10,938 nucleotides of DNA from a virus (Duplodnaviria; Heunggongvirae; Uroviricota; Caudoviricetes). The stretch covers positions 1 to 10,938 of IMG/VR virus record IMGVR_UViG_3300029212_000210; one strand, written 5' to 3'. This document shows positions 1-10,938 of this stretch, in pieces. Position numbers and translations under genes: made by a program. The number at the start of each line of letters is the position of its first letter. Position 1 is the stretch's first letter. The notes below the pieces were generated by a model, which searched no databases, was not told where the DNA came from, and saw only the letters and a program-made list of their open reading frames with translations.

Positions 1-816
1 ACGGTCTATCTTGGGGCAGGTTTAACTGAGCAGGATATTAATTATTTCTGCTTTTACTGGGATGATGTGGTTATTCTAGATAGTGAAAATATTCACTCGA
101 TTGTGCCTAAAGAAAAAGAATTATTAGATAATGGGGTATTACGTAGACCTATTATGAAACATGATGGTATGCTGAATATCCAAGACTTTCCATTTTTATA
201 TACGGAATTTCAGTTGCAGACATTGGATGAATTCAGGAAGAACGAGCCTGCTACTTATTGGCACTTTCATCAAACAGGGGAAAATTTAATATATGATAAA
301 GAACAGAAAACGGCCCTTCAGTTGAGATTGGAGTTGTTTAATGTTCTGAGAATTCCTGATAAAGATGCTCATATAGAAGATATATTACGTTTTAAAGATG
401 ATTGTCAGGATGATCTTAATGCGTTACATGAGTACTTAGAAAAACTGTATACTGAAGTCCTTTATTCTAGAGACCCTAATCTAACGAGGGCTAAAAATTT
501 TTCTTTATTACAAGAGGCTGTAGTTAATCTTGATAAAGCTATCGAAGGGAAATGGAGAAATCCTATCAGAATGGGAGTCAAAGCCAATCCAGAAGTAGAT
601 GGTGGGCAGGTTATGGAATTTTTAAAACCGTTGTACCATGCTGCTATTGCTGGTTATTCAGGCGGTATTATTCCCGGTATGGTTACAGCCTTGGCAACCG
701 CAATTCCAAGTTTTATAAAATTCCAACCAGAATGGGTGGGCTTTAGAGATAAGGGGCCTAAAGAATTAGCTTATCTTACCAAAGCAACGCATAAGGGGTT
801 GATTAAGAGAGCTTAA
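1..816 (+). CDS. Hypothetical protein, 5'-partial. The frame is open from position 1 and the ORF track starts it at a GTG at 67. AT-rich cargo gene in the P2 tin/old hotspot, with a hydrophobic C-terminal segment.
   Basis: Seen: an uninterrupted frame-1 ORF from the window edge to the stop at 814-816. GC is about 35% against about 55-60% in the neighbouring structural genes (counted by eye on sample stretches). Hydrophobic stretch GYSGGIIPGMVTALATAIPSFIKF near the C-terminus. I recognise no named family. Confidence 0.6.
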   Translation, partial: TVYLGAGLTEQDINYFCFYWDDVVILDSENIHSIVPKEKELLDNGVLRRPIMKHDGMLNIQDFPFLYTEFQLQTLDEFRKNEPATYWHFHQTGENLIYDKEQKTALQLRLELFNVLRIPDKDAHIEDILRFKDDCQDDLNALHEYLEKLYTEVLYSRDPNLTRAKNFSLLQEAVVNLDKAIEGKWRNPIRMGVKANPEVDGGQVMEFLKPLYHAAIAGYSGGIIPGMVTALATAIPSFIKFQPEWVGFRDKGPKELAYLTKATHKGLIKRA

Positions 817-918
817 GGCATTTTAATCGATTTTCGCAACTATATTCCTTCGTAACCACACAAGTGCATGACTATGCCGCATGAATCCGCATGATCGTTT
901 GAGGATCGTTTTAGCTGA

Positions 919-947
919 GGCCCGCTAGGAATGGCGGGCCTTTGCTT
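919..947 (+). terminator. Putative rho-independent terminator downstream of the cargo ORF
   Basis: Seen: stem GGCCCGC (919-925) paired with GCGGGCC (934-940), 8-nt loop, then TTTGCTT. Confidence 0.5.
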
Positions 948-988
948 ATGTCATGCAGGCGCATGAAAACCACTACATAAAGCGGGCA

Positions 989-1007
989 GGCGTGGCGGGG
1001 ATACGAG
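989..1007. other. Putative cos (cohesive-end) site of the P2-like genome
   Basis: Seen: GGCGTGGCGGGGATACGAG, located between the hotspot ORF and the 3' end of Q. Established (from memory): the P2 and 186 cohesive ends begin GGCG(A/T)GGCGGGGAAAGCA and lie next to the Q gene. The exact cut positions are not determinable here. Confidence 0.5.
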
Positions 1008-1095
1008 CGCGCGCAACGGGGTAAAATGGCCAAAATCCGGCGCAGCCTCTGGCCCGCTGGCAGCCTCATTTTGCGTAGGGGGAAAATGTCAGGAC

Positions 1096-1131
1096 AAAAA
1101 GAAACGCCCTGCAGAATGCTGCTGGGGCGTT
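1096..1131 (-). terminator. Rho-independent terminator of the P-Q operon
   Basis: Seen: inverted repeat AACGCCC (1103-1109) / GGGCGTT (1125-1131) with an inner GCAG/CTGC pair. On the minus strand it is followed by UCUUUUUGU (plus-strand A-run 1096-1102), 36 nt past the Q stop. Confidence 0.6.
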
Positions 1132-1166
1132 GTGAGAATTGGTCAGTTATTGATGTTGTGAGTATG

Positions 1167-2216
1167 TCAGCCTCGTTTGCTCTTAAGTCCTAAGTCATAG
1201 GTTTCAAAACGGATCACCTTTTCACCCAGCCAGTTGTTAAGCTCCAGCAGTCGCTTTTGCAGTGGCATCAGCTCATTGCGGACGAAAACACGGCTCGCCT
1301 TTTCCACATCACCGAAGCCGCCAGTGTTGTTGGGAATGATACCCATCATTTGCGGCGGTACGCGGTGTGCCGCCATCATGTCGTCCCGACTCACGTTCTT
1401 GATGTTCAGAAATTCATCCTTCGCCGCGACTTCCGACAACGGGATGATCTGAAGCCCGTCCTTTTTGCCGTTAGGCGAGTACATAAACAGGTTACGGAAG
1501 TTACCAGGACCTTTGGCACTTTTCATTGCGTTGCGGAGGTTGTTCACATCCTCCTGGTTCTGCGCGGCGTCGGTCATGTACATGATGAAGCCCGCATGGC
1601 TGCCGTTAATGTAATACTTCCGGCGGAACAGCGTGGCGGACTCGTTGAGCAGGGCGGATGGAATGGCAGAAAGGTAACCTGGCAGACCATAAATCTCCTG
1701 GTTGATATCCGGCTCCATCAGGTGGAAGACGTTACCTTTTGTGAACTGATACGGCTGTGTCGTCAGGCTGTATTGCACAAACCAGTAGGTATCCAGGTCT
1801 AACCCGCGTCGGGTGTATTTTGCCAGCGCAGGTTCAAGGGCGATAACTTCACCGAAGCGGTTCGTGCGTTTCTCCAGGTAGGCGTTACCAAATACCAGAT
1901 AGTCCTGCACAAAACGTGAAAAAGCCTGCTGGCTGAGCAGTGGGTGAGGGATATAGGTGCTGGTCAGAATGTTGCACTTTACTGCAATCGGTGAGCTGTG
2001 GTGTACGGCGGCGCGGAATGTTCGCGCCAGGCCGTCGAAACTCACAGGCGGCTCATACCAGCGGTCCATCTGTACGCATTCCACATAGTCCAGCAGTTCG
2101 CGGCGGTCAAGTACTGGAACGGGATCACCGAAGCTGAATGCTTCGGCTGAAGTCTGGCTTTTATGCTGAATCTGGTTCGTCGACGCAGCGCGGTTCTTCT
2201 TACTCTTTCCCATCAA
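1167..2216 (-). CDS. Q: Portal protein (P2 gpQ family)
   Basis: 349-aa ORF. Position and orientation match P2 Q (next to cos, transcribed toward cos, ATGA overlap with the P stop). The sequence matches my recollection of P2 gpQ. Confidence 0.9.
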   Translation of the reverse strand: MMGKSKKNRAASTNQIQHKSQTSAEAFSFGDPVPVLDRRELLDYVECVQMDRWYEPPVSFDGLARTFRAAVHHSSPIAVKCNILTSTYIPHPLLSQQAFSRFVQDYLVFGNAYLEKRTNRFGEVIALEPALAKYTRRGLDLDTYWFVQYSLTTQPYQFTKGNVFHLMEPDINQEIYGLPGYLSAIPSALLNESATLFRRKYYINGSHAGFIMYMTDAAQNQEDVNNLRNAMKSAKGPGNFRNLFMYSPNGKKDGLQIIPLSEVAAKDEFLNIKNVSRDDMMAAHRVPPQMMGIIPNNTGGFGDVEKASRVFVRNELMPLQKRLLELNNWLGEKVIRFETYDLGLKSKRG

Positions 2217-3979
2217 AAAATCTCCACAATATTGCTGGTATTGGCGGACTCGCCCTGCAGCGGTTCGTTAAACAGTGCGTGCATTGTTGCCCAGGCCAGA
2301 TCGGCGTGGCTGGCTTCTTCGCTGCGGCTGGCTTCATAGGTCGGGCGGTTGCCGCTGGCGGTGGTTGCGCGACGGATTGCCATGAATGACTGCGCAATGT
2401 CGGTGTGTCCGGCGTCAAACTCCAGACGGCGGTGGCTGATAATGTCGTAGGCCTTGAGTACCAGGGCATTTTTAACATTGGGGTTATAGACAAACTCCCG
2501 GACGGCAGGAAAGAAAGCTTTCACGTTCTCATAAACCCCGTGACCAACGCCGGTCGAGTCGATACCGATATACGTAACGTTGTACTGTTCGGTGAGTTTT
2601 TTGATGGCGTCAGCCTGGGCGCGGAAGTCCATCCCGCGCCACTGGTGACGCTCAAGAATGCGGAACTTACCACCCGGCACGGCTGGCGGAGCCACCACCA
2701 CGCATCCGGCACTGTCGCCGTTCTGCGTACCTTTTGCCGGGTCATAACCGATCCACACTTCGCGCCAGCCAAACGGGCGCAGCGCCAGTGCATGAAAGTC
2801 GGTCCAGACTTCCCAGCTGTCCACCATGCACGCCTGCAGCTCGCTGAGCGGGAACACGGACGCGAGATCGTCCACGAACTCACACATCAGCAGGTTCTGG
2901 TATTCGTCCGGGCTGTACTCCATGCGCAACTGGCCGAGGTCGAACAGGTTACAGCCACCGCGCACCGCATCTTCCACGGTGACTATCTGGCGGTATTGCC
3001 CGTCTGCGCACAGCAGGCCGGGGGCCAGATTGCTGTGGGACAGGTCGATGTCCACCTTGTCAGCTTTGTTGCGCCCACGGTTGAACAGCGCACCGGACCA
3101 GAACGGATAAGCACTGTGGGTCAGACTGGATGGTGTGGAAAAATAGGTCTGCCGCCATTTCTTGTGAATAGCCATACCGGAAGCCACTTTGCGTAGCTCC
3201 TGAAATTTCGGTATCCAGAAATATTCATCCAGATACAGGTTGCCGTGATAACTCTGGGCCGTGCGGGCATTGGTGCCGAGGAAGTAAAGCGTGGCCCCGT
3301 TAGGAAGCACCATCGGATCGCCTTTCAGCTCCACCTCCACTTCTTTGGCGAAGTCGATGATGTACTGCTTAAAGACGTGGGCCTGTGCCTTACTGGCGGA
3401 AAGGAAAATCTGGTTACGCCCGGTAAGCAGGGCGTCAATCAGGGCTTCACGGGCAAAGTAAAAGGTCGCGCCGATCTGGCGTGACTTCAGCAGGTTGCGG
3501 ATGCGGTTGGTTTTTCCGGCTTCCCACCAGTGGCGCTGGTAGTTGAACATGGAGGAATGGAAGATTTCTTCCAGCTTCTCAATCTGTTCATCGGTGAAGA
3601 CATTTTTTTCCGGCTGACGGCGCGGGCCTTTGTTGCGGTTGGCGACGTTAGGGTTTAAGTCGGCTTCGTTGCCGCCATTGTTAAACTTGCCGATCCGCGC
3701 GTGGCGCTCAGACTGGCGCGCCAGCAGGTCAATCTCTTTGAAATCTTTCCCTTCTTTGTGCTCCTTCATAATGAGCTGGCAGTAGCGTGCGGCGGTGGTG
3801 AGCTGCATCTGATCCAGCGGCCCATAGTCACCCCACTTGTCGCGTTTTTTCCAGCTGTGAACGGTTGCAACTTTCTCGCCCAGCATTTCAGCAATGCGGG
3901 CGACGCGGTATCCCTGAAAGTACAGCAGCATGGCCTGCCGACGGGGATCGAGATCTGCGGGTGTCAGTGTGGTGTTCAT
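2213..3979 (-). CDS. P: Terminase large (ATPase) subunit (P2 gpP family)
   Basis: 588-aa ORF immediately upstream of Q on the same strand. Length and sequence are consistent with P2 gpP (about 590 aa). Confidence 0.92.
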   Translation of the reverse strand: MNTTLTPADLDPRRQAMLLYFQGYRVARIAEMLGEKVATVHSWKKRDKWGDYGPLDQMQLTTAARYCQLIMKEHKEGKDFKEIDLLARQSERHARIGKFNNGGNEADLNPNVANRNKGPRRQPEKNVFTDEQIEKLEEIFHSSMFNYQRHWWEAGKTNRIRNLLKSRQIGATFYFAREALIDALLTGRNQIFLSASKAQAHVFKQYIIDFAKEVEVELKGDPMVLPNGATLYFLGTNARTAQSYHGNLYLDEYFWIPKFQELRKVASGMAIHKKWRQTYFSTPSSLTHSAYPFWSGALFNRGRNKADKVDIDLSHSNLAPGLLCADGQYRQIVTVEDAVRGGCNLFDLGQLRMEYSPDEYQNLLMCEFVDDLASVFPLSELQACMVDSWEVWTDFHALALRPFGWREVWIGYDPAKGTQNGDSAGCVVVAPPAVPGGKFRILERHQWRGMDFRAQADAIKKLTEQYNVTYIGIDSTGVGHGVYENVKAFFPAVREFVYNPNVKNALVLKAYDIISHRRLEFDAGHTDIAQSFMAIRRATTASGNRPTYEASRSEEASHADLAWATMHALFNEPLQGESANTSNIVEIF

Positions 3980-4025
3980 GGCACAAACCTACAGTCTTGA
4001 ATGAAGGCTTTCCCCGCCTGCGGTT

Positions 4026-4043
4026 TGTGTGGTTGTCGGTACA
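4026..4043. promoter_or_regulatory. Candidate Ogr-dependent late-promoter element (TGT-N12-ACA dyad) in the divergent P/O intergenic region
   Basis: Seen: TGTgtggttgtcggtACA, centred about 88 bp upstream of the O start codon. Established: P2 late promoters carry a TGT-N12-ACA element centred near -55. This pattern also occurs by chance a few times per 10 kb, so the position is what supports it. Confidence 0.5.
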
Positions 4044-4121
4044 AATACCGCGCATTGTTTCACTGCCCTCATCACCGCAACCATAAGGCTCCAGTAAGTT
4101 TTTTCTAACGGAGCACGGCTC

Positions 4122-4955
4122 ATGACAGTGAAAGCAAAGCGTTTTCGCATCGGGGTGGAAGGTGCCACTACCGACGGACGTGAAATCCAGCGTGAATGGC
4201 TGGAACAGATGGCAGCCAGCTACAACCCGGCGGTGTATACCGCGCTGATTAACCTTGAACACATCAAGTCTTATCTGCCGGACAGCACCTTTAACCGCTA
4301 CGGCAAGGTGACGGCGCTGTTTGCTGAAGAAATCACGGAAGGTCCGTTGGCAGGCAAGATGGCGCTGTATGCCGACGTTGAGCCAACGGAATCCCTGGTG
4401 GAACTGGTGAAAAAAGGCCAGAAATTATTCACCTCTATGGAAGTCAGCCCGAAGTTTGCTGATACGGGCAAAGCCTACCTGGTCGGCCTGGCTGCCACTG
4501 ATGACCCTGCCAGTCTGGGCACTGAAATGCTGACATTCAGCGCCAGTGCAGCCCATAACCCACTGGCAAACCGCAAGCAGAATCCTGCCAATCTCTTTAC
4601 CGCTGCAGAGGAAACGGTGATCGAACTGGAAGAAATCCAGGACGACAAACCGTCCCTGTTTGCCCGTGTCACGGCGCTGTTTACCAAAAAAGAGCAGTCC
4701 GATGACGCCCGGTTCGCTGATGTGCATAAGGCCGTGGAGCTGGTCGCCACTGAGCAGCAGAACCTGAGCGCACGCACCGAAAAATCCCTGTCTGAGCAGG
4801 AAGAACGCCTGTCTGAGCTGGAGACAGCCCTGCAGGCACAGCTGACCGCCTTTAACGAACTGGTGGACAAGCTGAGCCATGAAGACAGCCGCCAGGACTA
4901 CCGCCAGCGTGCAACAGGCGGTAACGCCCCCGCTGACACTCTGACCAATTGCTGA
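4122..4955 (+). CDS. O: Capsid scaffolding protein (P2 gpO family)
   Basis: 277-aa ORF, first gene of the rightward head operon. The acidic, coiled-coil-like middle and a C-terminus ending in TNC resemble P2 gpO. Confidence 0.88.
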   Translation: MTVKAKRFRIGVEGATTDGREIQREWLEQMAASYNPAVYTALINLEHIKSYLPDSTFNRYGKVTALFAEEITEGPLAGKMALYADVEPTESLVELVKKGQKLFTSMEVSPKFADTGKAYLVGLAATDDPASLGTEMLTFSASAAHNPLANRKQNPANLFTAAEETVIELEEIQDDKPSLFARVTALFTKKEQSDDARFADVHKAVELVATEQQNLSARTEKSLSEQEERLSELETALQAQLTAFNELVDKLSHEDSRQDYRQRATGGNAPADTLTNC

Positions 4956-4971
4956 TGGAGCACAAAACCTG

Positions 4972-6030
4972 ATGAAGAAGAATACCCGCTTTGCTTTTAA
5001 CGCTTACCTGCAGCAGCTGGCGCGTCTGAACGGTGTGGCTGTTGAAGAACTGTCCAGCAAATTCACCGTAGAGCCGTCTGTACAGCAGACGCTGGAAGAC
5101 CAGATCCAGCAGTCCGCCGCTTTCCTGACGCTGATTAATGTCACCCCGGTGACTGAACAGTCCGGTCAGTTGCTTGGATTGGGGGTTGGCAGCACCATTG
5201 CAGGAACCACTGATACCTCCGCGAAAGAGCGTGAGCCTGTCGATCCGACGCTGATGGTCGATGTGGAATATAAATGCGAGCAGACCAACTTTGACACGGT
5301 GCTGACCTACGCGAAGCTGGACCTGTGGGCGAAGTTTCAGGATTTCCAGGTGCGTATCCGTGACGCCATCGTGAAACGTCAGGCACTGGACCGCATCATG
5401 ATCGGCTTTAACGGCGTGAAGCGTGCGAAAACCTCCAACCGTAGCGAAAACCCGCTGCTGCAGGATGTGAACAAAGGCTGGCTGCAGAAAATCCGTGAGG
5501 ATGCATCGGATCACGTCATGGGCAGCACCACCACGGGCGGTGAAACCACACCGGGTGCGGTGAAAGTCGGGAAAGGTGGCGAATATGCCAACCTGGACGC
5601 AGTGGTGATGGATGCCGTCAATGAGCTTATCGACGTGGTCTACCAGGACGATGACGATCTGGTGGTGATTTGCGGGCGTGAACTGCTGTCTGACAAGTAT
5701 TTCCCGCTGGTCAACAAAGAGCAGGAAAACAGTGAAAAACTGGCTGCCGATATGATCATCAGTCAGAAGCGCATGGGGGGCCTGCAGGCCGTGCGTGCGC
5801 CGTTCTTCCCGCCGAATGCATTGCTGATCACCCGTCTGGATAACCTGTCCATCTACTGGCAGGAAGACACCCGTCGCCGTTCAGTTATCGACAACCCGAA
5901 ACGTGACCGGATTGAAAATTTTGAATCCGTTAACGAAGCCTATGTGGTTGAGGACTACCGCTGCGCCGCACTGGTGGAAAACATCCAGATTGGCGATTTC
6001 AGCGCCGCTGCAGCAGAAACCGGAGCGTAA
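4972..6030 (+). CDS. N: Major capsid protein (P2 gpN family)
   Basis: 352-aa ORF following O. Strong resemblance to my recollection of P2 gpN (for example the FAFNAYL, FTVEPSV and MIGFNGVKRA..SNRS.NPLLQDV stretches). Confidence 0.92.
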   Translation: MKKNTRFAFNAYLQQLARLNGVAVEELSSKFTVEPSVQQTLEDQIQQSAAFLTLINVTPVTEQSGQLLGLGVGSTIAGTTDTSAKEREPVDPTLMVDVEYKCEQTNFDTVLTYAKLDLWAKFQDFQVRIRDAIVKRQALDRIMIGFNGVKRAKTSNRSENPLLQDVNKGWLQKIREDASDHVMGSTTTGGETTPGAVKVGKGGEYANLDAVVMDAVNELIDVVYQDDDDLVVICGRELLSDKYFPLVNKEQENSEKLAADMIISQKRMGGLQAVRAPFFPPNALLITRLDNLSIYWQEDTRRRSVIDNPKRDRIENFESVNEAYVVEDYRCAALVENIQIGDFSAAAAETGA

Positions 6031-6033
6031 TTC

Positions 6034-6684
6034 ATGAGCCTGAGTCCCGCACGGCAGCATCGCCTGCGCGTCCAGGCTGAACAGGCCGCCCGCGAGGGCG
6101 GCAGTGTTCGCCACGCGTCGGGCTATGACCTGATGCTGCTGCAACTGGCGGAAGACCGCCGCCGTCTCAAGGGTGTTCAGTCCACGGTCAAAAAAGCGGA
6201 AATCAAGGTGGAGCTGCTGCCGAAGTACGCCGACTGGGCAGAGGGTGTCCTGGCTGCCGGAGGCGCACAGCAGGATGACGTGCTGATGTACGTGATGCTG
6301 TGGCGCATTGATGCCGGAGATTATGCCGGGGCGCTGGAGATCGGGCGTCACGCCCTGCGTCATGGCTGGGTGATGCCGTTAGGTAACCGCAACGTGCAGA
6401 CCGTGCTGGCAGAGGAAATGGCAGATGCAGCCCAGAGCGCAATGCTTGCCGCCACCGGCTTTGATGCCGATCTGTTGCTGCAGACGCTGGAGCTGACAGA
6501 CGGTATGGATATGCCGGACCAGTCACGGGCGCGTCTGCATAAAGCGATTGGCGCTGTCCTGAGTGAAAACAATCCGGCGTCCGCCCTTAATCATCTCAAC
6601 CATGCGTTACAGCTCGATCCCCGCTGTGGCGTGAAAAAAGACAAACAGCAGCTGGAGCGCAGACTGCGCAATGACAGCCGCTGA
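6034..6684 (+). CDS. M: Terminase small (endonuclease) subunit (P2 gpM family)
   Basis: 216-aa ORF directly after N (3-nt gap). Resembles P2 gpM (for example QDD.LM.VMLWR.D.GD.AGALEI, GVKK). Confidence 0.87.
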   Translation: MSLSPARQHRLRVQAEQAAREGGSVRHASGYDLMLLQLAEDRRRLKGVQSTVKKAEIKVELLPKYADWAEGVLAAGGAQQDDVLMYVMLWRIDAGDYAGALEIGRHALRHGWVMPLGNRNVQTVLAEEMADAAQSAMLAATGFDADLLLQTLELTDGMDMPDQSRARLHKAIGAVLSENNPASALNHLNHALQLDPRCGVKKDKQQLERRLRNDSR

Positions 6685-6704
6685 CAGAACGTGCCCCCGC
6701 GCAC

Positions 6705-6765
6705 GGGCGGCACGGGGTGGCGAAAGGCACTGCCACATCAAAACCCCGTCCACCGCCCTTTATTT
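6705..6765 (+). terminator. GC-rich stem-loop followed by TTTATTT between M and L. Possible attenuator or processing structure.
   Basis: Seen: GGGCGG-c-ACGGGG (6705-6717) pairs with CCCCGT-cca-CCGCCC (6744-6758), with an inner GTGGC/GCCAC hairpin, followed by TTTATTT (6759-6765) just before the L ribosome-binding site. Confidence 0.3.
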
Positions 6766-6779
6766 CAGGAGAAAGCAGC

Positions 6780-7313
6780 ATGAAGTTTGTTGCGCCAGAA
6801 CAGGCACCGGAACAGGCGGAAATCATCAGAAATACGCCGTTCTGGCCTGATGTGGACCTGTCGGAGTTTCGCAGTGTCATGCGCACTGACGGCACGGTGA
6901 CGCAGCCGCGTTTAAAGCAGGTTGCGCTGTCGGCAATTTCGGAGGTCAACGCAGAGCTGTATGAGTTTCGCAGACGCCAGCAGATGCTGGGGTATGCCTC
7001 GCTGGCAGAGATTCCGGCGGAACAGCTGGACGGCAAAAGTGAGCGCATTCAGCACTATTTCAACGCGGTTTACTGCTGGGCACGCGCCATGCTCAACGAA
7101 CGTTACCAGGACTATGACACCACGGCATCCGGTGTGAAGCGGGGCGAGGAACTGGCGGAAGCCAGCGGTGATTTATGGCGTGACGCCCGCTGGGCCATCA
7201 GCCGGGTACTCGAGGCCGGAGAATCAAGACAGCGTATTGCACTGATTTTTGATGTAGGCGTTTCTACCATTTATAGAAAATTTCCGGCAAATAAGATCAA
7301 TGAATCCCCCTGA
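6780..7313 (+). CDS. L: Head completion/stabilisation protein (P2 gpL family)
   Basis: The ORF track starts it at 6717, but an in-frame ATG at 6780 is preceded by AGGAGA and gives 177 aa, comparable to P2 gpL (169 aa). NTPFWPD.DL..FR and RRDARWAISR.L motifs match gpL. The C-terminal 25 aa are diverged. Confidence 0.82.
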   Translation: MKFVAPEQAPEQAEIIRNTPFWPDVDLSEFRSVMRTDGTVTQPRLKQVALSAISEVNAELYEFRRRQQMLGYASLAEIPAEQLDGKSERIQHYFNAVYCWARAMLNERYQDYDTTASGVKRGEELAEASGDLWRDARWAISRVLEAGESRQRIALIFDVGVSTIYRKFPANKINESP

Positions 7314-7361
7314 ATCAGCATTATGTTGATTATCCCTGCAAGCAGACAAATACCGTTATTT

Positions 7362-7379
7362 TGTGTGAATAACGACACA
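7362..7379 (+). promoter_or_regulatory. Candidate Ogr-dependent late promoter (F-promoter equivalent), TGT-N12-ACA dyad
   Basis: Seen: TGTgtgaataacgacACA, centred about 85 bp upstream of the FI-fragment start codon. Same reasoning as the O-promoter dyad. Confidence 0.5.
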
Positions 7380-7455
7380 ACTGCGCTTAGCTGTTTGTCA
7401 GGCACAATCACTTCAACATAGGGCGAAGCCTAATCCAATCAGGAGGTTCGCCACT

Positions 7456-7866
7456 ATGGCTCAGGATTACCACCACGGGGTGCGCGTTGTTGAAGTCAAC
7501 GAAGGCACCCGATCTATTACCACGGTGAGCACCGCCATCGTGGGTATGGTCTGCACGGGCGATGATGCCGATGCAAAAATGTTTCCTCTTAATAAACCCG
7601 TGCTGATCACTGATGTGCTGACTGCCAGCGGTAAAGCGGGTGAGTCCGGTACTCTGGCCCGTTCGCTGGATGCCATCGCTGACCAGGCAAAACCCGTGAC
7701 CATTGTTGTGCGTGTGCCGCAGGGTGAAACGGAAGACGAAACCACGACCAATATCATCGGCGCAGTGACTGCTGAAGGTAAAAAAACAGGTATGAAAGCC
7801 CTGTTAACCGAAGTGCTGGAATGGCGGTATAAAGCGATTCAGAGAAGCGGGGCCAACGATGAGTGA
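7456..7866 (+). pseudogene. FI: Tail sheath (P2 gpFI family) N-terminal fragment, about 122 codons, fused in frame to about 14 unrelated codons that end in an ATGA overlap with the next ORF
   Basis: Seen: 136-aa ORF with an AGGAGG ribosome-binding site. The first ~120 aa match my recollection of the P2 gpFI N-terminus (DYHHGV.V.E.NEGTR, TVSTAIVGMVCT, FPLNKPVLIT, IADQ.KPVT). Full-length FI is about 396 aa. Confidence 0.72.
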
Positions 7867-8959
7867 TAACAACCTGCGTCTGCAGGTCATTCTTAATGCG
7901 GTTGACAAGCTCACCCGCCCATTTCGATCTGCGCAGGCCAGTTCAAGAGAACTGGCTGCTGCTGTCAAAAAATCCCGCGATGCAATAAAGCAGCTTGATC
8001 AGGCCGGGAGCAGTCTGGACAGCTTCCGAAAGCTGCAGGCAGAAAATCAGAAATTAGGCGACAGGCTGAACTATGCCCGCCAGCGTGCAAATTTGCTCAG
8101 TCAGGAACTGGGAGCGATGGGGCCGCCTTCGCAACGTCAGGTTGTTGCTCTGGGCCGTCAACGGCTGGCTGTTCAGCGCCTGGAAGAACGCCAGAAAAAG
8201 CTGCAGCAGCAGACGGCGCTTGTGCGTGCTGAACTGTACCGGGCGGGAATTTCTGCGAAAGACGATGCGGGAGCAACTGCCCGTTTAGCCCGTGAAACAT
8301 CACGTTATAACCAGGAACTTTCGAAACAGGAGGCGCGGCTGAAGCGACTGGGGGAAGCTCAGCGCAGGATGAATGCAGCGCGTGCCAGTTATGCCCGTTC
8401 GCTGGAGGTGCGTGATCGTATTGCAGGTGCCGGAGCCACCACCACGGCTGCAGGGCTGGCAATGGGTGCGCCAGTGATGGCGGCAGTAAAAAGCTATACC
8501 AGCATGGAAGATGCCATGAAAGGTGTGGCAAAGCAGGTCAATGGTCTGCGTGACGATACCCGCGAACCCGCGAAGAAAGAAAGCACCACGGTGAAGCGTA
8601 AGCGCAGGACTAAGAAGCAGAAGAAAGAGCCGGAAGCGAAGCAGGGCGATTACCTGGTGGGTACGGATGAAAACGTGCTGGTACTTAATCGCACCTATGC
8701 CAACCGGAGCAACGCCGAACGGGCGGCAAAAATGCAGTGGGAACGCCTGCAACGCGGCGTTGCGTCATTCTCGCTACAACTGGCGGAAGGGCGGGCAGAT
8801 CTCTACACGGAAATGCCTGTGAAGGTCAGTGGTTTTAAACAGCCGATAGATGATGCGGAATGGACCATTACGACTCTGACACATACCGTCAGCCCGGATA
8901 ACGGTTTTACAACCAGTATTGAACTCGAAGTGAAGATTGATGATCTTGAAATGGAATAA
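7859..8959 (+). pseudogene. In-frame fusion of a tail tape-measure (gpT-like) N-terminal ~235 aa to the tail protein D (gpD-like) C-terminal ~130 aa
   Basis: Seen: 366-aa ORF. The N-terminal part is helical and coiled-coil-like with a Gly/Ala-rich hydrophobic segment, and sits where T should be. The C-terminal part (lysine-rich linker, then ERLQRGVA.FSLQLAEGRADLYTE.PVKVSGFK ... GFTTS.ELEV) matches the gpD C-terminus as I recall it, and sits directly upstream of ogr as D does in P2. Junction near 8560-8580. Confidence 0.62.
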
Positions 8960-8991
8960 AGTGTTCTCAATATTGATATTTTGTGTATCAT

Positions 8992-8997
8992 TACAAT
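8992..8997 (+). promoter_or_regulatory. Possible -10 hexamer (TACAAT) of the ogr promoter
   Basis: Seen: TACAAT about 30 nt upstream of the ogr start in an AT-rich spacer. No convincing -35 at 17 bp. Confidence 0.3.
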
Positions 8998-9027
8998 GAT
9001 TCTGATAGCAAAGGTAGGGATCTGGAT

Positions 9028-9246
9028 ATGATGAATTGTCCAAAGTGTGGTCATGCGGCACACACAAGGAGCAGTTTTCAAGTAACTGAAAGCACCAAAG
9101 AGCGTTACTGCCAGTGCCAAAATATTAACTGCGGGAGCACTTTTGTTACCCATGAAACAGTGGTCCGGTTTATTGTGACACCCGCACTGATTGCTACTGC
9201 TCCTCCACATCCATTGCCAGGTGGTCAGGGGCATATGAATTTTTGA
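9028..9246 (+). CDS. ogr: Late transcription activator Ogr (C4 zinc-finger)
   Basis: Seen: the ATG at 9028 (or 9031) is preceded by AGGTAGGGA and gives 72 aa with the CPKCGH...CQCQNINC zinc-finger pattern, equal in length to P2 Ogr. The ORF-track start at 8983 is a GTG further upstream and is not preferred. Confidence 0.9.
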   Translation: MMNCPKCGHAAHTRSSFQVTESTKERYCQCQNINCGSTFVTHETVVRFIVTPALIATAPPHPLPGGQGHMNF

Positions 9247-9253
9247 GAAAGAG

Positions 9254-9276
9254 AACCTGCTACGGCAGGTTTTTAT
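9254..9276. terminator. Bidirectional rho-independent terminator between convergent ogr and the BRCT-like ORF
   Basis: Seen: AACCTGC (9254-9260), loop TACG, GCAGGTT (9265-9271), then TTTTATT on the plus strand and CUCUUUCUC on the minus strand. It overlaps the minus-strand stop codon. Confidence 0.6.
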
Positions 9277-9755
9277 TCATCTGGGATCTCACCCGTTTCA
9301 AGAAAATGTATAAAGCCAGGCTCATCTATGATGATTGTGCCTTTCATCCTGGCTGCCGATACTTTTGATGGGCCTGCATTGTAACCGCAACAGAGCATCT
9401 GAAGGCTTTGGGTTACAGAGGTTCTTACCGTTAATCCTTGTTCATTCGCCTTATCAACCAATCTTTCTTTATCTGCTTTCTTAAATCCGGTGAAACACAC
9501 ATCGAATGTATTTTTTTTCGGACCAGACTGCTTAGTGAGATGTGAGTAGCTTTCGGGGAGGAATGACGCGCATTCCTGAATGGCTTGTTCTGGTGAATCG
9601 TACTGTTTAAGAATGCGGTCTTTTCGGAAGGTTTTTATTCGATCGGTGTTCTTACAAATGCCCTGTATATGATTTTCGCTATAACTGATGCTCTGTATAG
9701 AGTGAACACCGATACGACCATTTGCATTGATGTAAACAAAGTGAAGTTCTTCCAT
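9273..9755 (-). CDS. Hypothetical protein with a C-terminal BRCT-like domain and a small beta-rich N-terminal domain that is possibly WYL-like
   Basis: Seen: 160-aa ORF with an AGAGG ribosome-binding site 6 nt upstream of the ATG. GC is about 42%, lower than the prophage backbone. The C-terminal ~80 aa (FDVCFTGF..ADKERL..KA.EQGL.V..SV...L..L..G.N.G.SK...A...G..II.E..F..FL) fit the BRCT pattern seen in the LigA C-terminus. The N-terminal motif R.KTFRKDRI resembles the end of WYL domains. Domain calls are from pattern memory only. Confidence 0.65.
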   Translation of the reverse strand: MEELHFVYINANGRIGVHSIQSISYSENHIQGICKNTDRIKTFRKDRILKQYDSPEQAIQECASFLPESYSHLTKQSGPKKNTFDVCFTGFKKADKERLVDKANEQGLTVRTSVTQSLQMLCCGYNAGPSKVSAARMKGTIIIDEPGFIHFLETGEIPDE

Positions 9756-9781
9756 GTGAAACCTCTTTGCATGATTTCAAG

Positions 9782-9820
9782 ATGGCGACAGGCAAGATGG
9801 ACGCAAAAGTCTGTCGCCAT
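9782..9820. repeat. Perfect 10-bp inverted repeat ATGGCGACAG / CTGTCGCCAT separated by 19 bp, overlapping a CAAGATGG direct repeat
   Basis: Seen: arms at 9782-9791 and 9811-9820. CAAGATGG occurs at 9778-9785 and 9793-9800. Located between the BRCT-like ORF start and the ssrA terminator. Confidence 0.45.
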
Positions 9821-9835
9821 TTTGCCGCCACTACC

Positions 9836-9870
9836 AAAGAAAAAGGGGCTACGCTTTCACGTAACCCCTT
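9836..9870 (-). terminator. Rho-independent terminator of ssrA
   Basis: Seen (minus strand): AAGGGG-u-UACG, loop UGAAAG, CGUA-g-CCCC, followed by UUUUUCUUU, starting 9 nt after the tmRNA CCA end. Confidence 0.6.
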
Positions 9871-9878
9871 GATTTATT

Positions 9879-10241
9879 TGGTGGAGCTGGCGGGAGTTGA
9901 ACCCGCGTCCGAAATTCCTACATCCTCGGTACTACATGCTTAGTCAGTCTTTACATTCGCTTGCCAGCTGCGGACGGACACGCCACTAACAAACTAGCCT
10001 GATTAAGTTTTAACGCTTCAACCCCAGGCAGGGCTTCCACGCGATCTCTTTTGGGTTTGACCTCTCTTGATCCCCGTCCTAAGAGCGGAGGCTAGGGAGA
10101 GAGGGCTCTAAGCAGGTTATTAAGCTGCTAAAGCGTAGTTTTCGTCGTTTGCGACTATTTTTTGCGGCTTTTTACGAGGCCAACCGCCCCTCGGCATGCA
10201 CCTTGGGTTTCGCAAATCCCGTCGAATCCAGAATCAGCCCC
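9879..10241 (-). ncRNA. ssrA: tmRNA (SsrA), complete, 363 nt
   Basis: Seen: the reverse complement runs from GGGGCTGATTCTGGATTCGACGGG to GTTCAACTCCCGCCAGCTCCACCA and includes the tag-encoding stretch GCAAACGACGAAAACTACGCTTTAGCAGCTTAA (ANDENYALAA). It matches E. coli ssrA as I recall it. Confidence 0.97.
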
Positions 10242-10455: not shown

Positions 10456-10938
10456 TTAACGGTGGGCGTTTTTCATGATACGCGCTTTATCCACCTGCCA
10501 TTCGCGCTCTTTGATATCTGAACGTTTATCGTGCTGTTTCTTACCTTTGGCGACGCCGATTTTCACTTTGCACCAGGCATTTTTCCAGTACAGGGAGAGC
10601 GCCACTACGGTATAGCCTTCTCGATTGACGCGACCGTACAATGAGTCCAGTTCGCGCTGGTTGAGAAGTAACTTGCGGGTACGGGTAGGATCGCACACCA
10701 CATGCGTGGAGGCCACTGCCATTGGCGTGATGTTTGCGCCAAACAGGAACGCTTCTCCGTCACGCAGAAGGACATAGCTGTCGCTGATATTGGCTTTTCC
10801 TGCGCGCAGGGATTTAACTTCCCAGCCTTGCAGGGCAAGTCCCGCTTCGAACTCTTCTTCGATAAAGTATTCGTGACGGGCGCGCTTGTTAAGCGCGATG
10901 GTCGCTGAACCAGGTTTATGTGCTTTTTTCTTCGTCAT
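10456..10938 (-). CDS. smpB: SsrA-binding protein SmpB, complete. The start codon is the last 3 nt of the window.
   Basis: 160-aa ORF that matches E. coli SmpB as I recall it, upstream of ssrA on the same strand, which is the conserved arrangement. Confidence 0.96.

What the first reader, a model, noticed from the sequence alone, without database searches (positions are those of the whole stretch)
1..9878. Head-only P2 derivative: packaging and capsid module, cos and ogr are retained while tail and lysis functions are gone
Seen: Q, P, O, N, M and L are full-length with normal start contexts, the cos-like site is present, ogr is intact and both late-promoter dyads are present. Everything needed for tails and lysis is absent or fragmentary. 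Inference: the simplest reading is a decaying defective prophage. An alternative worth testing is a helper-dependent element that can still package its own DNA into P2-type heads and borrow tails and lysis from a co-resident P2-like phage, analogous to capsid-forming satellites. The vestigial FI and T-D fragments favour decay, but their intact reading frames and promoters suggest the deletions are recent or tolerated.
Basis: inference. Interest (0 to 1): 0.6.

Follow-up and report, generated by a model that had tools for sequence, protein, structure and literature searches.

The report
Freshly deleted defective P2/186-like prophage
This is an ordinary, recently crippled P2/186-type prophage sitting at the E. 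coli ssrA gene, which lost its tail and lysis genes through three small-homology deletions. It is not an evolved capsid-making satellite, but its deletion endpoints fall on breakpoints that recur in unrelated prophage remnants, and that recurrence is unexplained.

Summary
**Verdict: defective prophage, not a satellite.**

- **What it is.** The window holds the right two-thirds of a 186-like (P2 family) prophage, integrated at the 3' end of ssrA in an E. coli-type chromosome.
- **The deletions.** Against an intact relative (E. coli 22-245, 99.7-99.97% identical) it carries three deletions of 8,670, 1,778 and 3,556 bp. The junctions at 7209|7210, 7806|7807 and 8558|8559 have 3, 0 and 3 nt of microhomology.
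- **What is gone.** X, lysis genes, R, S, the baseplate, fibres, FII, E and U are removed. Three in-frame chimeras remain: L::invertase-HTH, FI::E' and T::D.
- **What is kept.** Q, P, O, N, M, a cos-like site, ogr and two late-promoter dyads are intact.
- **Correction to the finding.** L is not intact. Its conserved 11-residue C-terminus is replaced by 34 foreign residues.
- **Distribution.** The same triple-deletion allele turns up in about 5-10 metagenome or SRA contigs, but in none of 5,426 complete E. coli genomes. One contig joins its ogr end to an int-CI end through the att core, which means either an excised circle or a tandem prophage.
- **Comparison set.** Other P2-like remnants carry different deletions, some of which remove head genes. 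Nothing points to a conserved head-only lineage.
- **Unexplained.** Deletion endpoints recur across independent remnants, including this element's E' and D breakpoints.

The parts
1..816 (+). 3' 816 nt of a DUF6236 cargo gene, in the variable slot next to Q (the old/tin position of P2). The full gene is 290 aa and starts 57 nt left of the window.
   Evidence: Pfam PF19749. The full-length gene is seen in L020 and L002. phrog_23128, function unknown.
989..1001 (+). cos-like core GGCGTGGCGGGGA
   Evidence: Read directly from the sequence. It matches the first 13 nt of my recollection of the 186 cohesive end; the full 19-mer is not matched. The region is identical to the intact relative L002.
1167..2213 (-). 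Q, portal protein, 348 aa, intact
   Evidence: PF04860. The exact protein is present in many intact prophages.
2213..3979 (-). P, terminase large (ATPase) subunit, 588 aa, intact
   Evidence: PF06056, PF03237 and PF17289.
4026..4043 (.). Ogr-type late promoter dyad TGT-N12-ACA in the P/O intergenic region
   Evidence: sequence.
4122..4955 (+). O, capsid scaffold/protease, 277 aa, intact
   Evidence: PF05929, E=5e-113.
4972..6030 (+). N, major capsid protein, 352 aa, intact
   Evidence: PF05125, E=1e-151.
6034..6684 (+). M, terminase small subunit, 216 aa, intact
   Evidence: PF05944.
6780..7313 (+). Chimeric L: head-completion/adaptor codons 1-143, fused in frame at 7209|7210 to the last 34 codons (HTH) of the tail-fibre DNA invertase. 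The native 11-aa C-terminus is lost.
   Evidence: PF05926 plus PF02796. phrog_71 head-tail adaptor plus DNA invertase. Junction mapped. C-terminal alignment with P2 gpL and 186 gpQ.
7209..7210 (.). Junction 1. Deletion of 8,670 bp (L 3' end, X, holin, lysozyme, lysA/B/C, R, S, V, W, J, I, H, G, the invertible segment, invertase 5' part). Microhomology TAC.
7362..7379 (.). Late promoter dyad TGT-N12-ACA upstream of the FI stump (P_F equivalent)
7456..7866 (+). Chimeric FI(1-117)::E'(21-39), 136 aa. A tail-sheath N-terminal stump fused in frame to the end of the frameshift extension E'.
   Evidence: PF22671 plus PF06528. phrog_23 plus phrog_6416. Junction mapped.
7806..7807 (.). Junction 2. Deletion of 1,778 bp (FI 3' part, FII, E, E' 5' part), no microhomology. 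Both sides fall on recurrent breakpoints (A and B).
7859..8959 (+). Chimeric T(1-233)::D(234-366), 366 aa. A tape-measure N-terminus fused in frame to the gpD C-terminus.
   Evidence: phrog_28 (residues 1-231) and phrog_12925/phrog_52 (residues 230-366). Junction mapped.
8558..8559 (.). Junction 3. Deletion of 3,556 bp (T 3' part, U, D 5' part). Microhomology ATA. The right side is recurrent breakpoint C, at the edge of a (CCCGCGAA)2 repeat.
9028..9246 (+). ogr, late-gene activator, 72 aa, intact
   Evidence: phrog_603. Sequence. 99.8% identical to annotated ogr in L001.
9273..9755 (-). 160-aa BRCT-like cargo gene between ogr and att
   Evidence: PF00533, weak. phrog_2561, E=2.5e-77. PDC-S48, weak.
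9879..9926 (-). att core: the 3' end of ssrA, duplicated at the far end of the prophage
   Evidence: A 49-nt exact repeat is found at the left end of related ssrA prophages (L001 2118-2166). L008 diverges from the window after 9926.
9879..10241 (-). ssrA (tmRNA), host gene
   Evidence: ARAGORN. Rfam RF00023, 295.8 bits.
10456..10938 (-). smpB, host gene
   Evidence: PF01668 on the called gene. Annotation in L001/L003.

Best explanation
The window is the late-gene half of a 186-like (P2 family, Peduoviridae) temperate phage integrated at the 3' end of ssrA. It has very recently suffered three illegitimate-recombination deletions totalling 14.0 kb.

The deletions remove all lysis genes and every tail gene except stumps. 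They also clip the C-terminus of the head-tail adaptor L. The element is therefore a defective prophage that cannot make infectious particles or lyse its host by itself.

Inferred, not shown:
- Repressor, SOS antirepressor, integrase, replication gene A, Ogr, terminase, portal, scaffold, capsid and cos appear to be retained. The element can therefore probably still be induced, excise, replicate, switch on its late promoters and fill P2-type proheads.
- The particles would be tailless and trapped in the cell unless a co-resident P2-like phage supplied L, tails and lysis.

The three in-frame fusion ORFs are by-products of where short microhomologies lie in coding DNA (CTG codons; T|A at codon positions 3|1). 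They are not evidence of function.
For: - **Deletion map.** Co-linear blocks against the intact prophage L002 are 99.97%, 99.67% and 99.87% identical for the first three. The D-ogr block is a different allele (85% to L002, 99.8% to L001). Junction microhomologies are TAC, none and ATA.
- **Lost and truncated genes.** Pfam and PHROG annotation of the ORFs.
- **L damage.** The replaced tail QDAPHCTVELI aligns with P2 QGKPRCIVSQI and 186 QDKPRCIVGQL, although overall identity is only 38-40%.
- **The allele is real, not an assembly artefact.** All three junction strings occur in contigs from different assemblers and samples: L005, L006/L020, L007, L008, L155. L021 carries junction 1 only.
- **Replication gene.** A is called at its full 804 aa on the same scaffold.
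- **Decay is generic in this phage group.** Other prophages at ssrA and at rcdA/ybjL carry quite different multi-deletion patterns. Examples are F829 (P-O-N lost), GCA_050023395 (P to T lost), TUM1887 (V::D) and NCTC9038.
- **Rarity.** No complete E. coli genome of 5,426 carries this architecture. The fusion proteins T::D and L::HTH are each recorded on only 5 contigs (each report 10 contigs read).
- **Precedent.** Defective prophages, including a P2-like one, still excise, replicate and get packaged (PMC2669165).
Against: - Three deletions with only 5 point differences from an intact phage is a lot of structural change in very little time.
- All three fusions are in frame, which has a 1/27 chance if the junctions were phase-random.
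- The allele was found in several independent samples. One contig joins its ogr end through the att core to an int-CI end. That would fit an element which is still active or mobile.
- Its breakpoints coincide with breakpoints used by independent deletions elsewhere. The process that made them is therefore not simple random decay.
Confidence: 0.8

Rival explanations
1. Helper-dependent, capsid-forming element. The deletion derivative is maintained because it still builds and fills its own P2-type heads. It spreads by borrowing tails, lysis and L function from a co-resident or superinfecting P2-like phage, analogous to cf-PICIs.
For: - Q, P, O, N, M, cos, ogr and both late promoters are intact.
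- A is full length on the same allele.
- An attP-type junction contig, L008, exists.
- The same allele was seen in several samples.
- E. coli genomes commonly hold several P2-like prophages: the median is 4 matching places per genome that has any.
- Defective prophages can be packaged with help from others (PMC2669165).
Against: - The adaptor L, the very protein needed to dock a borrowed tail, has lost its conserved C-terminus.
- No satellite-type genes were found in the window, and nothing beyond standard phage genes.
- The architecture is confined to one allele that is at least 99.7% identical across contigs. It is absent from 5,426 complete genomes, from the IMG/VR viral contigs and from the metagenome-contig scan.
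- Other remnants lose head genes just as readily.
- With any P2-like helper present, the element's own head genes are redundant.
- The inferred size, about 21-22 kb, is roughly 60% of a P2-size headful. This is a size inference plus general knowledge of P2/P4 packaging; it was not tested.
- L008 is equally well explained by a tandem second prophage.
Confidence: 0.1
2. Assembly artefact. The 'deletions' are chimeric joins made by a metagenome assembler between several P2-like prophages in the sample.
For: - The window is a metagenome contig, identical to ERR589534 k127_20561.
- Several contigs break at shared positions: window position 1, and L021 exactly at junction 2.
Against: - Identical junctions were recovered by different assemblers and collections: MEGAHIT k127 and k119, a scaffolded ENA assembly, JGI and Logan.
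- The junctions lie at 0-3 nt microhomologies, not inside long shared repeats.
- The FI::E' junction is also present in an isolate genome, GCA_013057625.1.
Confidence: 0.02
3. The deletions are products of a specific, recurrent break-and-join process acting on P2-like prophage DNA. That would be a site-preferring nuclease, topoisomerase or recombinase, or fork stalling at fixed sites, rather than generic random decay. The head-only outcome would then be incidental.
For: - Among 50 distinct junctions mapped on one reference, 31 endpoint pairs coincide within 2 nt, against 0.86 expected. Excluding the E' site, the figures are 10 against 0.72, and no simulation of 5,000 reached 10.
- The E' site (window 7806/7807) is used in 9 independent events with different partners.
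- The D site (window 8558/8559) is shared with IAL7250.
- The FI site is used in both directions.
- An FI-to-E' deletion offset by one base exists in a different prophage.
- Microhomology ending in TA occurs in 11 of 50 junctions, against a 2% background.
Against: - No common sequence motif was found beyond NTA^ and (G)CTG^.
- The P2-type ori nick site does not resemble the hot spots.
- The invertase crossover sites have a TT centre and a different sequence.
- The E' site has no unusual single-strand fold.
- Several E'-site events were found by searching for that site, so its share of events is inflated.
- In 117 IMG/VR loci chosen for carrying the native D-site sequence, the E' site contributes 1 of 26 junctions. 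That set could not have detected a D-site deletion.
Confidence: 0.35

Closest known systems
Defective or cryptic P2-like prophages of E. coli (for example Sp13 of O157 Sakai, and other ssrA-resident 186-like remnants such as those in NCTC9038, TUM1887 and 01G17CRGN001)
   Same: - P2-family gene order and proteins.
- Integration at ssrA with the ogr end next to the tmRNA gene.
- Internal deletions that leave gene stumps.
- Early region and ogr retained.
   Different: This allele has its own set of three junctions. It happens to keep Q-P-O-N-M intact while losing every lysis gene. It is almost identical to a living relative, so the damage is very recent.
Coliphage 186 / P2 (Peduoviridae), intact temperate phages
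   Same: - Q-P divergent from O-N-M-L.
- cos next to Q.
- Ogr-type activator and TGT-N12-ACA late promoters.
- 186-type early genes in relatives and on the same scaffold (CI, CII, Fil, A, DinI/Tum-like).
   Different: Lacks X, holin, lysozyme, LysA/B/C, R, S, V, W, J, I, H, G, FII, E and U. FI, E', T, D, L and the invertase survive only as chimeric fragments.
Capsid-forming PICIs (cf-PICIs)
   Same: On paper the content is similar: own capsid and packaging genes, no tail genes, no lysis genes. A tail-donor phage would be needed (preprint 10.1101/2025.02.11.637232, listed).
   Different: - cf-PICIs are a conserved, diverged lineage of small islands with their own regulation and dedicated head-tail connectors.
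- This element is one near-clonal deletion allele of a full phage.
- It keeps leftover tail-gene stumps.
- Its adaptor protein is damaged.
Satellite phage P4 and P4-like elements
   Same: Would depend on a P2-type helper and use P2-type cos packaging.
   Different: P4 carries no capsid genes. It has sid/psu/delta/epsilon and an alpha primase, and none of these is seen in the window.

Membership tests
P2/186-like phage (Peduoviridae) prophage | P2-family head and packaging proteins in the order Q-P (leftward) and O-N-M-L (rightward) | tested here: met
   PF04860; PF06056/PF03237/PF17289; PF05929; PF05125; PF05944; PF05926, in that order.
P2/186-like phage (Peduoviridae) prophage | Ogr/Delta zinc-finger activator and TGT-N12-ACA late promoters | tested here: met
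   ogr at 9028-9246. Dyads at 4026-4043 and 7362-7379.
P2/186-like phage (Peduoviridae) prophage | cos site adjacent to Q | tested here: inconclusive
   A 13-nt cos-like core lies at 989-1001 and is identical to the intact relative. The 19-nt P2/186 cohesive-end string is not matched within 3 mismatches. Cleavage was not tested.
P2/186-like phage (Peduoviridae) prophage | Early region with integrase, repressor and rolling-circle initiator A | tested here: inconclusive
   - A (804 aa) and the DinI-like gene are present on scaffold L020, which carries the same allele.
- int and CI are seen only across the att core in L008. They could belong to a tandem neighbour.
- The 5 kb left of A could not be retrieved.
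P2/186-like phage (Peduoviridae) prophage | Complete tail and lysis modules (needed for a functional phage) | tested here: not met
   14.0 kb is deleted, and only stumps of FI, E', T and D remain.
Capsid-forming satellite (cf-PICI-like) | Complete, functional capsid, packaging and head-tail connector set | tested here: inconclusive
   Q, P, O, N and M are intact. The adaptor L has lost its conserved C-terminal 11 residues. No function was tested.
Capsid-forming satellite (cf-PICI-like) | Architecture conserved across diverged members (a lineage, not a single allele) | tested here: not met
   - All carriers are at least 99.7% identical.
- None is found among 5,426 complete E. coli genomes, nor in the IMG/VR or metagenome-contig scans for junction 3.
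- Other remnants have different deletions.
Capsid-forming satellite (cf-PICI-like) | Helper-induced life cycle, and release of particles that acquire helper tails | not testable with these tools
   Needs induction, packaging and transfer experiments.
P4-like satellite | sid/psu capsid-size genes, delta/epsilon regulators, alpha primase | tested here: not met
   None of the window's ORFs matches these families. Only the window was tested.
Defective prophage made by illegitimate recombination | Truncated or chimeric genes at junctions with 0 to a few nt of microhomology, relative to an intact close relative | tested here: met
   The junctions have TAC, none and ATA. The flanks are 99.7-99.97% identical to L002.

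The most novel reading that the evidence does not exclude
P2/186-like prophages in enterobacteria are dismantled by a recurrent, site-preferring deletion process, not by random decay. That process has fixed breakpoints such as the E' site 52 nt upstream of T and the (CCCGCGAA)2 site in D, with NTA^ and CTG^ joints. This element is a product of it that remains inducible, excisable and able to fill heads, so it could be mobilised by a co-resident P2-like helper.
Probability: 0.2. Interest if true: 0.65.

Novelty: new member of a known kind. Interest (0 to 1): 0.33.

Why it matters
As a head-only element it matters little. It is one more defective prophage, and the damaged adaptor makes a satellite life style unlikely.

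Two things give it some value.

- **A very early snapshot of prophage inactivation.** There are three deletions and almost no point mutations, the allele can be traced in several gut metagenomes, and there is a possible excised form. Read-level tests of whether such remnants stay active are therefore feasible.
- **Recurrent breakpoints.** Its breakpoints belong to a set that recurs in independent P2-like remnants. If that reflects a specific mechanism, it would change how prophage 'decay' and the in-frame fusion genes it leaves behind are interpreted.

Tried and rejected
- **Left end of the element.** The integrase of L008 could not be looked up. The homologue search returned only a 92% cluster representative. 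The portal look-up returned only long isolate contigs with intact prophages. The 5 kb left of gene A on scaffold ZHAN15-1_942 therefore stays unseen.
- **Junction 3 in other collections.** The junction-3 string was not found in the metagenome-contig collection or in IMG/VR.
- **Full cos match.** The full 19-nt P2/186 cos string is not matched within 3 mismatches.
- **Rolling-circle initiator A as the cause of the fixed breakpoints.** The P2 ori nick site (AF063097 position 29892) and its equivalent in this phage do not resemble the hot spots.
- **Tail-fibre invertase acting at quasi-sites.** Its crossover sites (TTCTCGCATACC-TT-GGTTTGGGAGAA) are unlike the hot spots.
- **A hairpin at the E' site.** The DNA fold z-score is -1.2.
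- **DNA gyrase sites.** The paper I read gives no simple consensus I could score here.
- **Mis-specified scan.** One IMG/VR scan for the D site matched the native sequence. I reused its 117 loci as a sample for mapping junctions.
- **Selection for in-frame fusions.** Rejected as unnecessary. At least one O-to-E' junction is out of frame. Outside the E' site, 7 of 14 junctions are in frame. CTG and T|A microhomologies are codon-phased.

Full report
**1. What the window is**

The right end of the window is host DNA: smpB (10456-10938, minus strand) and the tmRNA gene ssrA (9879-10241, minus strand). ARAGORN gives the tag ANDENYALAA, and Rfam RF00023 scores 295.8 bits. Everything to the left of 9879 is prophage.

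The ORFs and their Pfam/PHROG families are:

| Feature | Coordinates | Strand | Identification |
|---|---|---|---|
| DUF6236 cargo gene, cut by the window start | 1-816 | + | PF19749 |
| Q portal | 1167-2213 | - | PF04860 |
| P large terminase | 2213-3979 | - | PF06056, PF03237, PF17289 |
| O scaffold | 4122-4955 | + | PF05929 |
| N major capsid | 4972-6030 | + | PF05125 |
| M small terminase | 6034-6684 | + | PF05944 |
| L-like ORF | 6780-7313 | + | PF05926 plus resolvase HTH (PF02796) |
| 136-aa ORF | 7456-7866 | + | sheath N-terminal domain plus GpE |
| 366-aa ORF | 7859-8959 | + | tape measure N-terminus plus gpD C-terminus |
| ogr | 9028-9246 | + | Ogr/Delta (phrog_603) |
| 160-aa BRCT-like gene | 9273-9755 | - | PF00533 (weak), phrog_2561 |

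Related complete genomes show the full context. These are 186-type phages (CI, CII, Fil, Dam, A, DinI/Tum-like) that integrate at ssrA with the ogr end next to the tmRNA gene.

**2. The deletions**

An apparently complete relative, at the rcdA/ybjL site of E. coli 22-245 (L002), matches the window in four co-linear blocks.

| Window | L002 | Identity |
|---|---|---|
| 1-7209 | 20001-27209 | 2 mismatches |
| 7207-7806 | 35877-36476 | 2 mismatches |
| 7807-8558 | 38255-39006 | 1 mismatch |
| 8556-9158 | 42560-43184 | 85% (a different D-ogr allele, 99.8% identical to ssrA prophage L001) |

The three gaps are 8,670, 1,778 and 3,556 bp.

- **Deletion 1** runs from L codon 143 to the last 34 codons of the tail-fibre DNA invertase. 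It removes X, holin, lysozyme, LysA/B/C, R, S, V, W, J, I, H, G and the invertible segment.
- **Deletion 2** runs from FI codon 117 to E' codon 21. It removes the rest of the sheath gene, the tube gene FII and E.
- **Deletion 3** runs from T codon 233 to D codon 234. It removes most of the tape measure, U and the front of D.

The junction microhomologies are TAC, none and ATA. These are the marks of illegitimate recombination. The near-absence of point differences shows the events are recent.

**3.

- Q, P, O, N and M are intact.
- A cos-like core GGCGTGGCGGGGA is at 989-1001, although the full 19-nt P2/186 string is not matched.
- ogr is intact.
- TGT-N12-ACA dyads lie in the P/O intergenic region (4026-4043) and upstream of the FI stump (7362-7379).
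- L is not intact. Its last 11 residues, QDAPHCTVELI, align with QGKPRCIVSQI in P2 gpL and QDKPRCIVGQL in 186 gpQ, although those proteins are only 38-40% identical overall. Here they are replaced by 34 residues of invertase helix-turn-helix.
- PHROGs calls this protein the head-tail adaptor. A changed C-terminus is therefore a serious caveat for any model in which these heads dock borrowed tails. That last step is inference from what adaptor proteins generally do.

**4. Is the allele real, and where is it?**

The window is identical to the first 10,938 nt of a human-gut metagenome contig, ERR589534 k127_20561.

All three junction strings are also present in contigs from other assemblies and samples:
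- ENA ERZ28662196 scaffold_942;
- ERZ27262089;
- JGI 3300076444;
- Logan SRR10682775.

Logan SRR22216082 carries junction 1 only. Some of these may be the same sample assembled twice, which I could not check. The T::D and L::HTH proteins are each recorded on 5 contigs, none from NCBI isolates.

No complete E. coli genome of 5,426 has the arrangement. The junction-3 string is also absent from IMG/VR and from the metagenome-contig collection scanned.

Scaffold_942 extends leftwards through DUF6236, a DinI-like gene and a full-length 804-aa replication gene A. The remaining 5 kb could not be fetched. Its length is about what dam to int would need, but that is only a size argument.

Contig L008 runs FI::E' - T::D - ogr - BRCT - att core, and then into a 352-aa cargo gene, an integrase and the start of CI. 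That is the junction expected of an excised circle, and equally of a second prophage integrated in tandem. I cannot tell which.

**5. Decay or satellite?**

Other prophages of this group show many other deletion patterns:

| Genome | Pattern |
|---|---|
| NCTC9038 | M-L, R-J and J-T gaps |
| TUM1887 | V fused to D |
| 01G17CRGN001 | K-V gap, truncated T |
| F829 | P-O-N lost, as well as tail genes |
| GCA_050023395 | everything from P to T lost |
| FORC_082, KSC64, IAL7250 | other tail and late-gene deletions |
| IMG/VR prophage contigs | a further two dozen junctions |

Head genes are therefore not specially spared. My first impression that they were came from searching with a head-gene query.

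Nothing in the window is satellite-specific.

The best-supported reading is a freshly disabled prophage. Because the regulatory, replication, packaging and capsid genes look intact, it may still be induced, excise, replicate and fill heads. Defective prophages, including a P2-like one, are known to do this and even to be packaged with help from other prophages (PMC2669165). That would make it complementable, which is not the same as being an adapted, capsid-forming satellite.

**6. The in-frame fusions**

All three fusions are in frame, which looked suggestive. Across 20 junctions between same-strand genes, 13 are in frame.

The excess is concentrated at joints whose microhomology is CTG (the commonest Leu codon) or TA. 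In GC-rich coding DNA, TA sits mostly across codon positions 3|1. Such joints are in frame for compositional reasons. One O-to-E' joint at the same site is out of frame. I therefore do not read the open frames as evidence of selection.

**7. An unexplained pattern: recurrent breakpoints**

I mapped 50 distinct junctions from complete genomes, IMG/VR contigs, a food metagenome and this window onto L002. Endpoints coincide far more often than chance allows:
- 31 endpoint pairs lie within 2 nt, against 0.86 expected (maximum 6 in 5,000 simulations);
- without the strongest site, 10 pairs against 0.72 expected, and no simulation of 5,000 reached 10.

The three breakpoints that involve this window:

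- **E' site (window 7806/7807).** This is the strongest site, 52 nt upstream of T. The retained sequence ACCGAAGTGCTGGAATGG is joined to eight different left partners: FI at three positions, W, A, O and the antisense of P, plus this window. It is used once as a left end. Several of these events were found by searching for that site, so their share is inflated. Their independence is not in doubt.
- **D site (window 8558/8559).** This window's D breakpoint lies at the edge of a (CCCGCGAA)2 repeat. It is shared with a T-to-D deletion that has a different T endpoint, in IAL7250.
- **FI site.** The FI breakpoint is used in both directions by three other elements.

An isolate (GCA_013057625.1) and a Logan contig carry an FI-to-E' deletion in an otherwise complete F operon at the ybjL site. 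Its joint reads TTG|ACC instead of TTA|ACC. That is either a second, one-base-offset event between the same two sites, or a point change exactly at the joint.

Joints ending in TA in both partners make up 11 of 50, against a 2% background.

I tested and found no support for:
- the rolling-circle nick site;
- the invertase crossover sites;
- a hairpin at the E' site.

The mechanism is unknown. This is the most interesting thing I saw, but it lies beside the finding as given.

**8. Verdict**

Novelty is low for the element itself: it is a new member of a known kind. The recurrent breakpoints deserve a systematic look.

Noticed in passing
window 7806/7807 (= L002 38254/38255), also L022, L026, L028, L029, L030, L032, L033: A deletion hot spot inside E', 52 nt upstream of the T start codon. 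Nine independent junctions use it, with partners in FI (three positions), W, A, O, P (antisense) and T. The retained side always starts ACCGAAGTGCTGG.
   Followed up: partly
window 8558/8559 (= L002 42562/42563); L028 7835/7836: A second recurrent breakpoint, at the 5' edge of a tandem octamer (CCCGCGAA)2 in gene D. It is shared by this window and E. coli IAL7250, with different T endpoints. Two IMG/VR loci (L112, L124) have three copies of the octamer.
   Followed up: partly
L002 coordinates 14,000-43,000 (50 junctions from about 40 loci): Deletion joints in P2-like prophages are strongly enriched for TA-ending microhomology (11 of 50 against a 2% background; consensus GG[GA]TA^). Other positions recur as well: 40466/7, 28112, 23109, 31596, 36177, 25869-71.
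   Followed up: partly
L154 (GCA_013057625.1 contig AATPXW010000007.1) 766-1176; L156: The identical FI::E' fusion protein occurs in a different prophage (ybjL site) with the invertase, T, U and D intact. Its joint reads TTG|ACC instead of TTA|ACC. This is either an intermediate or an independent repeat of deletion 2.
   Followed up: partly
L008 2880-5418: attP-type junction. The ogr-BRCT end of the triple-deletion element continues through the 48-nt ssrA core into a 64-aa ORF, a 352-aa cargo gene (phrog_17460, function unknown), an integrase that is only 82-89% identical at DNA level to those of the other ssrA prophages fetched, and CI.
   Followed up: partly
window 9273-9755 (-): A 160-aa BRCT-like moron gene between ogr and att. 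It matches phrog_2561 'DNA ligase' at E=2.5e-77 and gives a weak hit to the PADLOC candidate PDC-S48. In strain 01G17CRGN001 the same gene is split by an IS3.
   Followed up: no
window 1-816; L001-L004, L009-L018 next to Q and next to int: The slot between DinI and Q, and the slot between att and int, hold different cargo in each relative. Seen were DUF6236, a dsDNA-nuclease-domain protein, an AAA ATPase plus S8 peptidase, PIN and AIPR proteins, an anti-phage dCTP deaminase, SIR2 and a retron PtuB. These are typical defence hot spots.
   Followed up: no
contig ends: L005, L007 and L152 at window position 1; L021 at window 7806; L033 at L002 42564: Several independent assemblies break at identical positions. 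Two of those breaks fall exactly on deletion hot spots. This suggests mixed deleted and undeleted, or otherwise repeated, sequence in those samples.
   Followed up: no
L002 33458-33484 and 35335-35361: Crossover sites of the tail-fibre inversion system in the intact relative (TTCTCGCATACC-TT-GGTTTGGGAGAA). In the window only the last 34 codons of its invertase survive, fused to L.
   Followed up: yes
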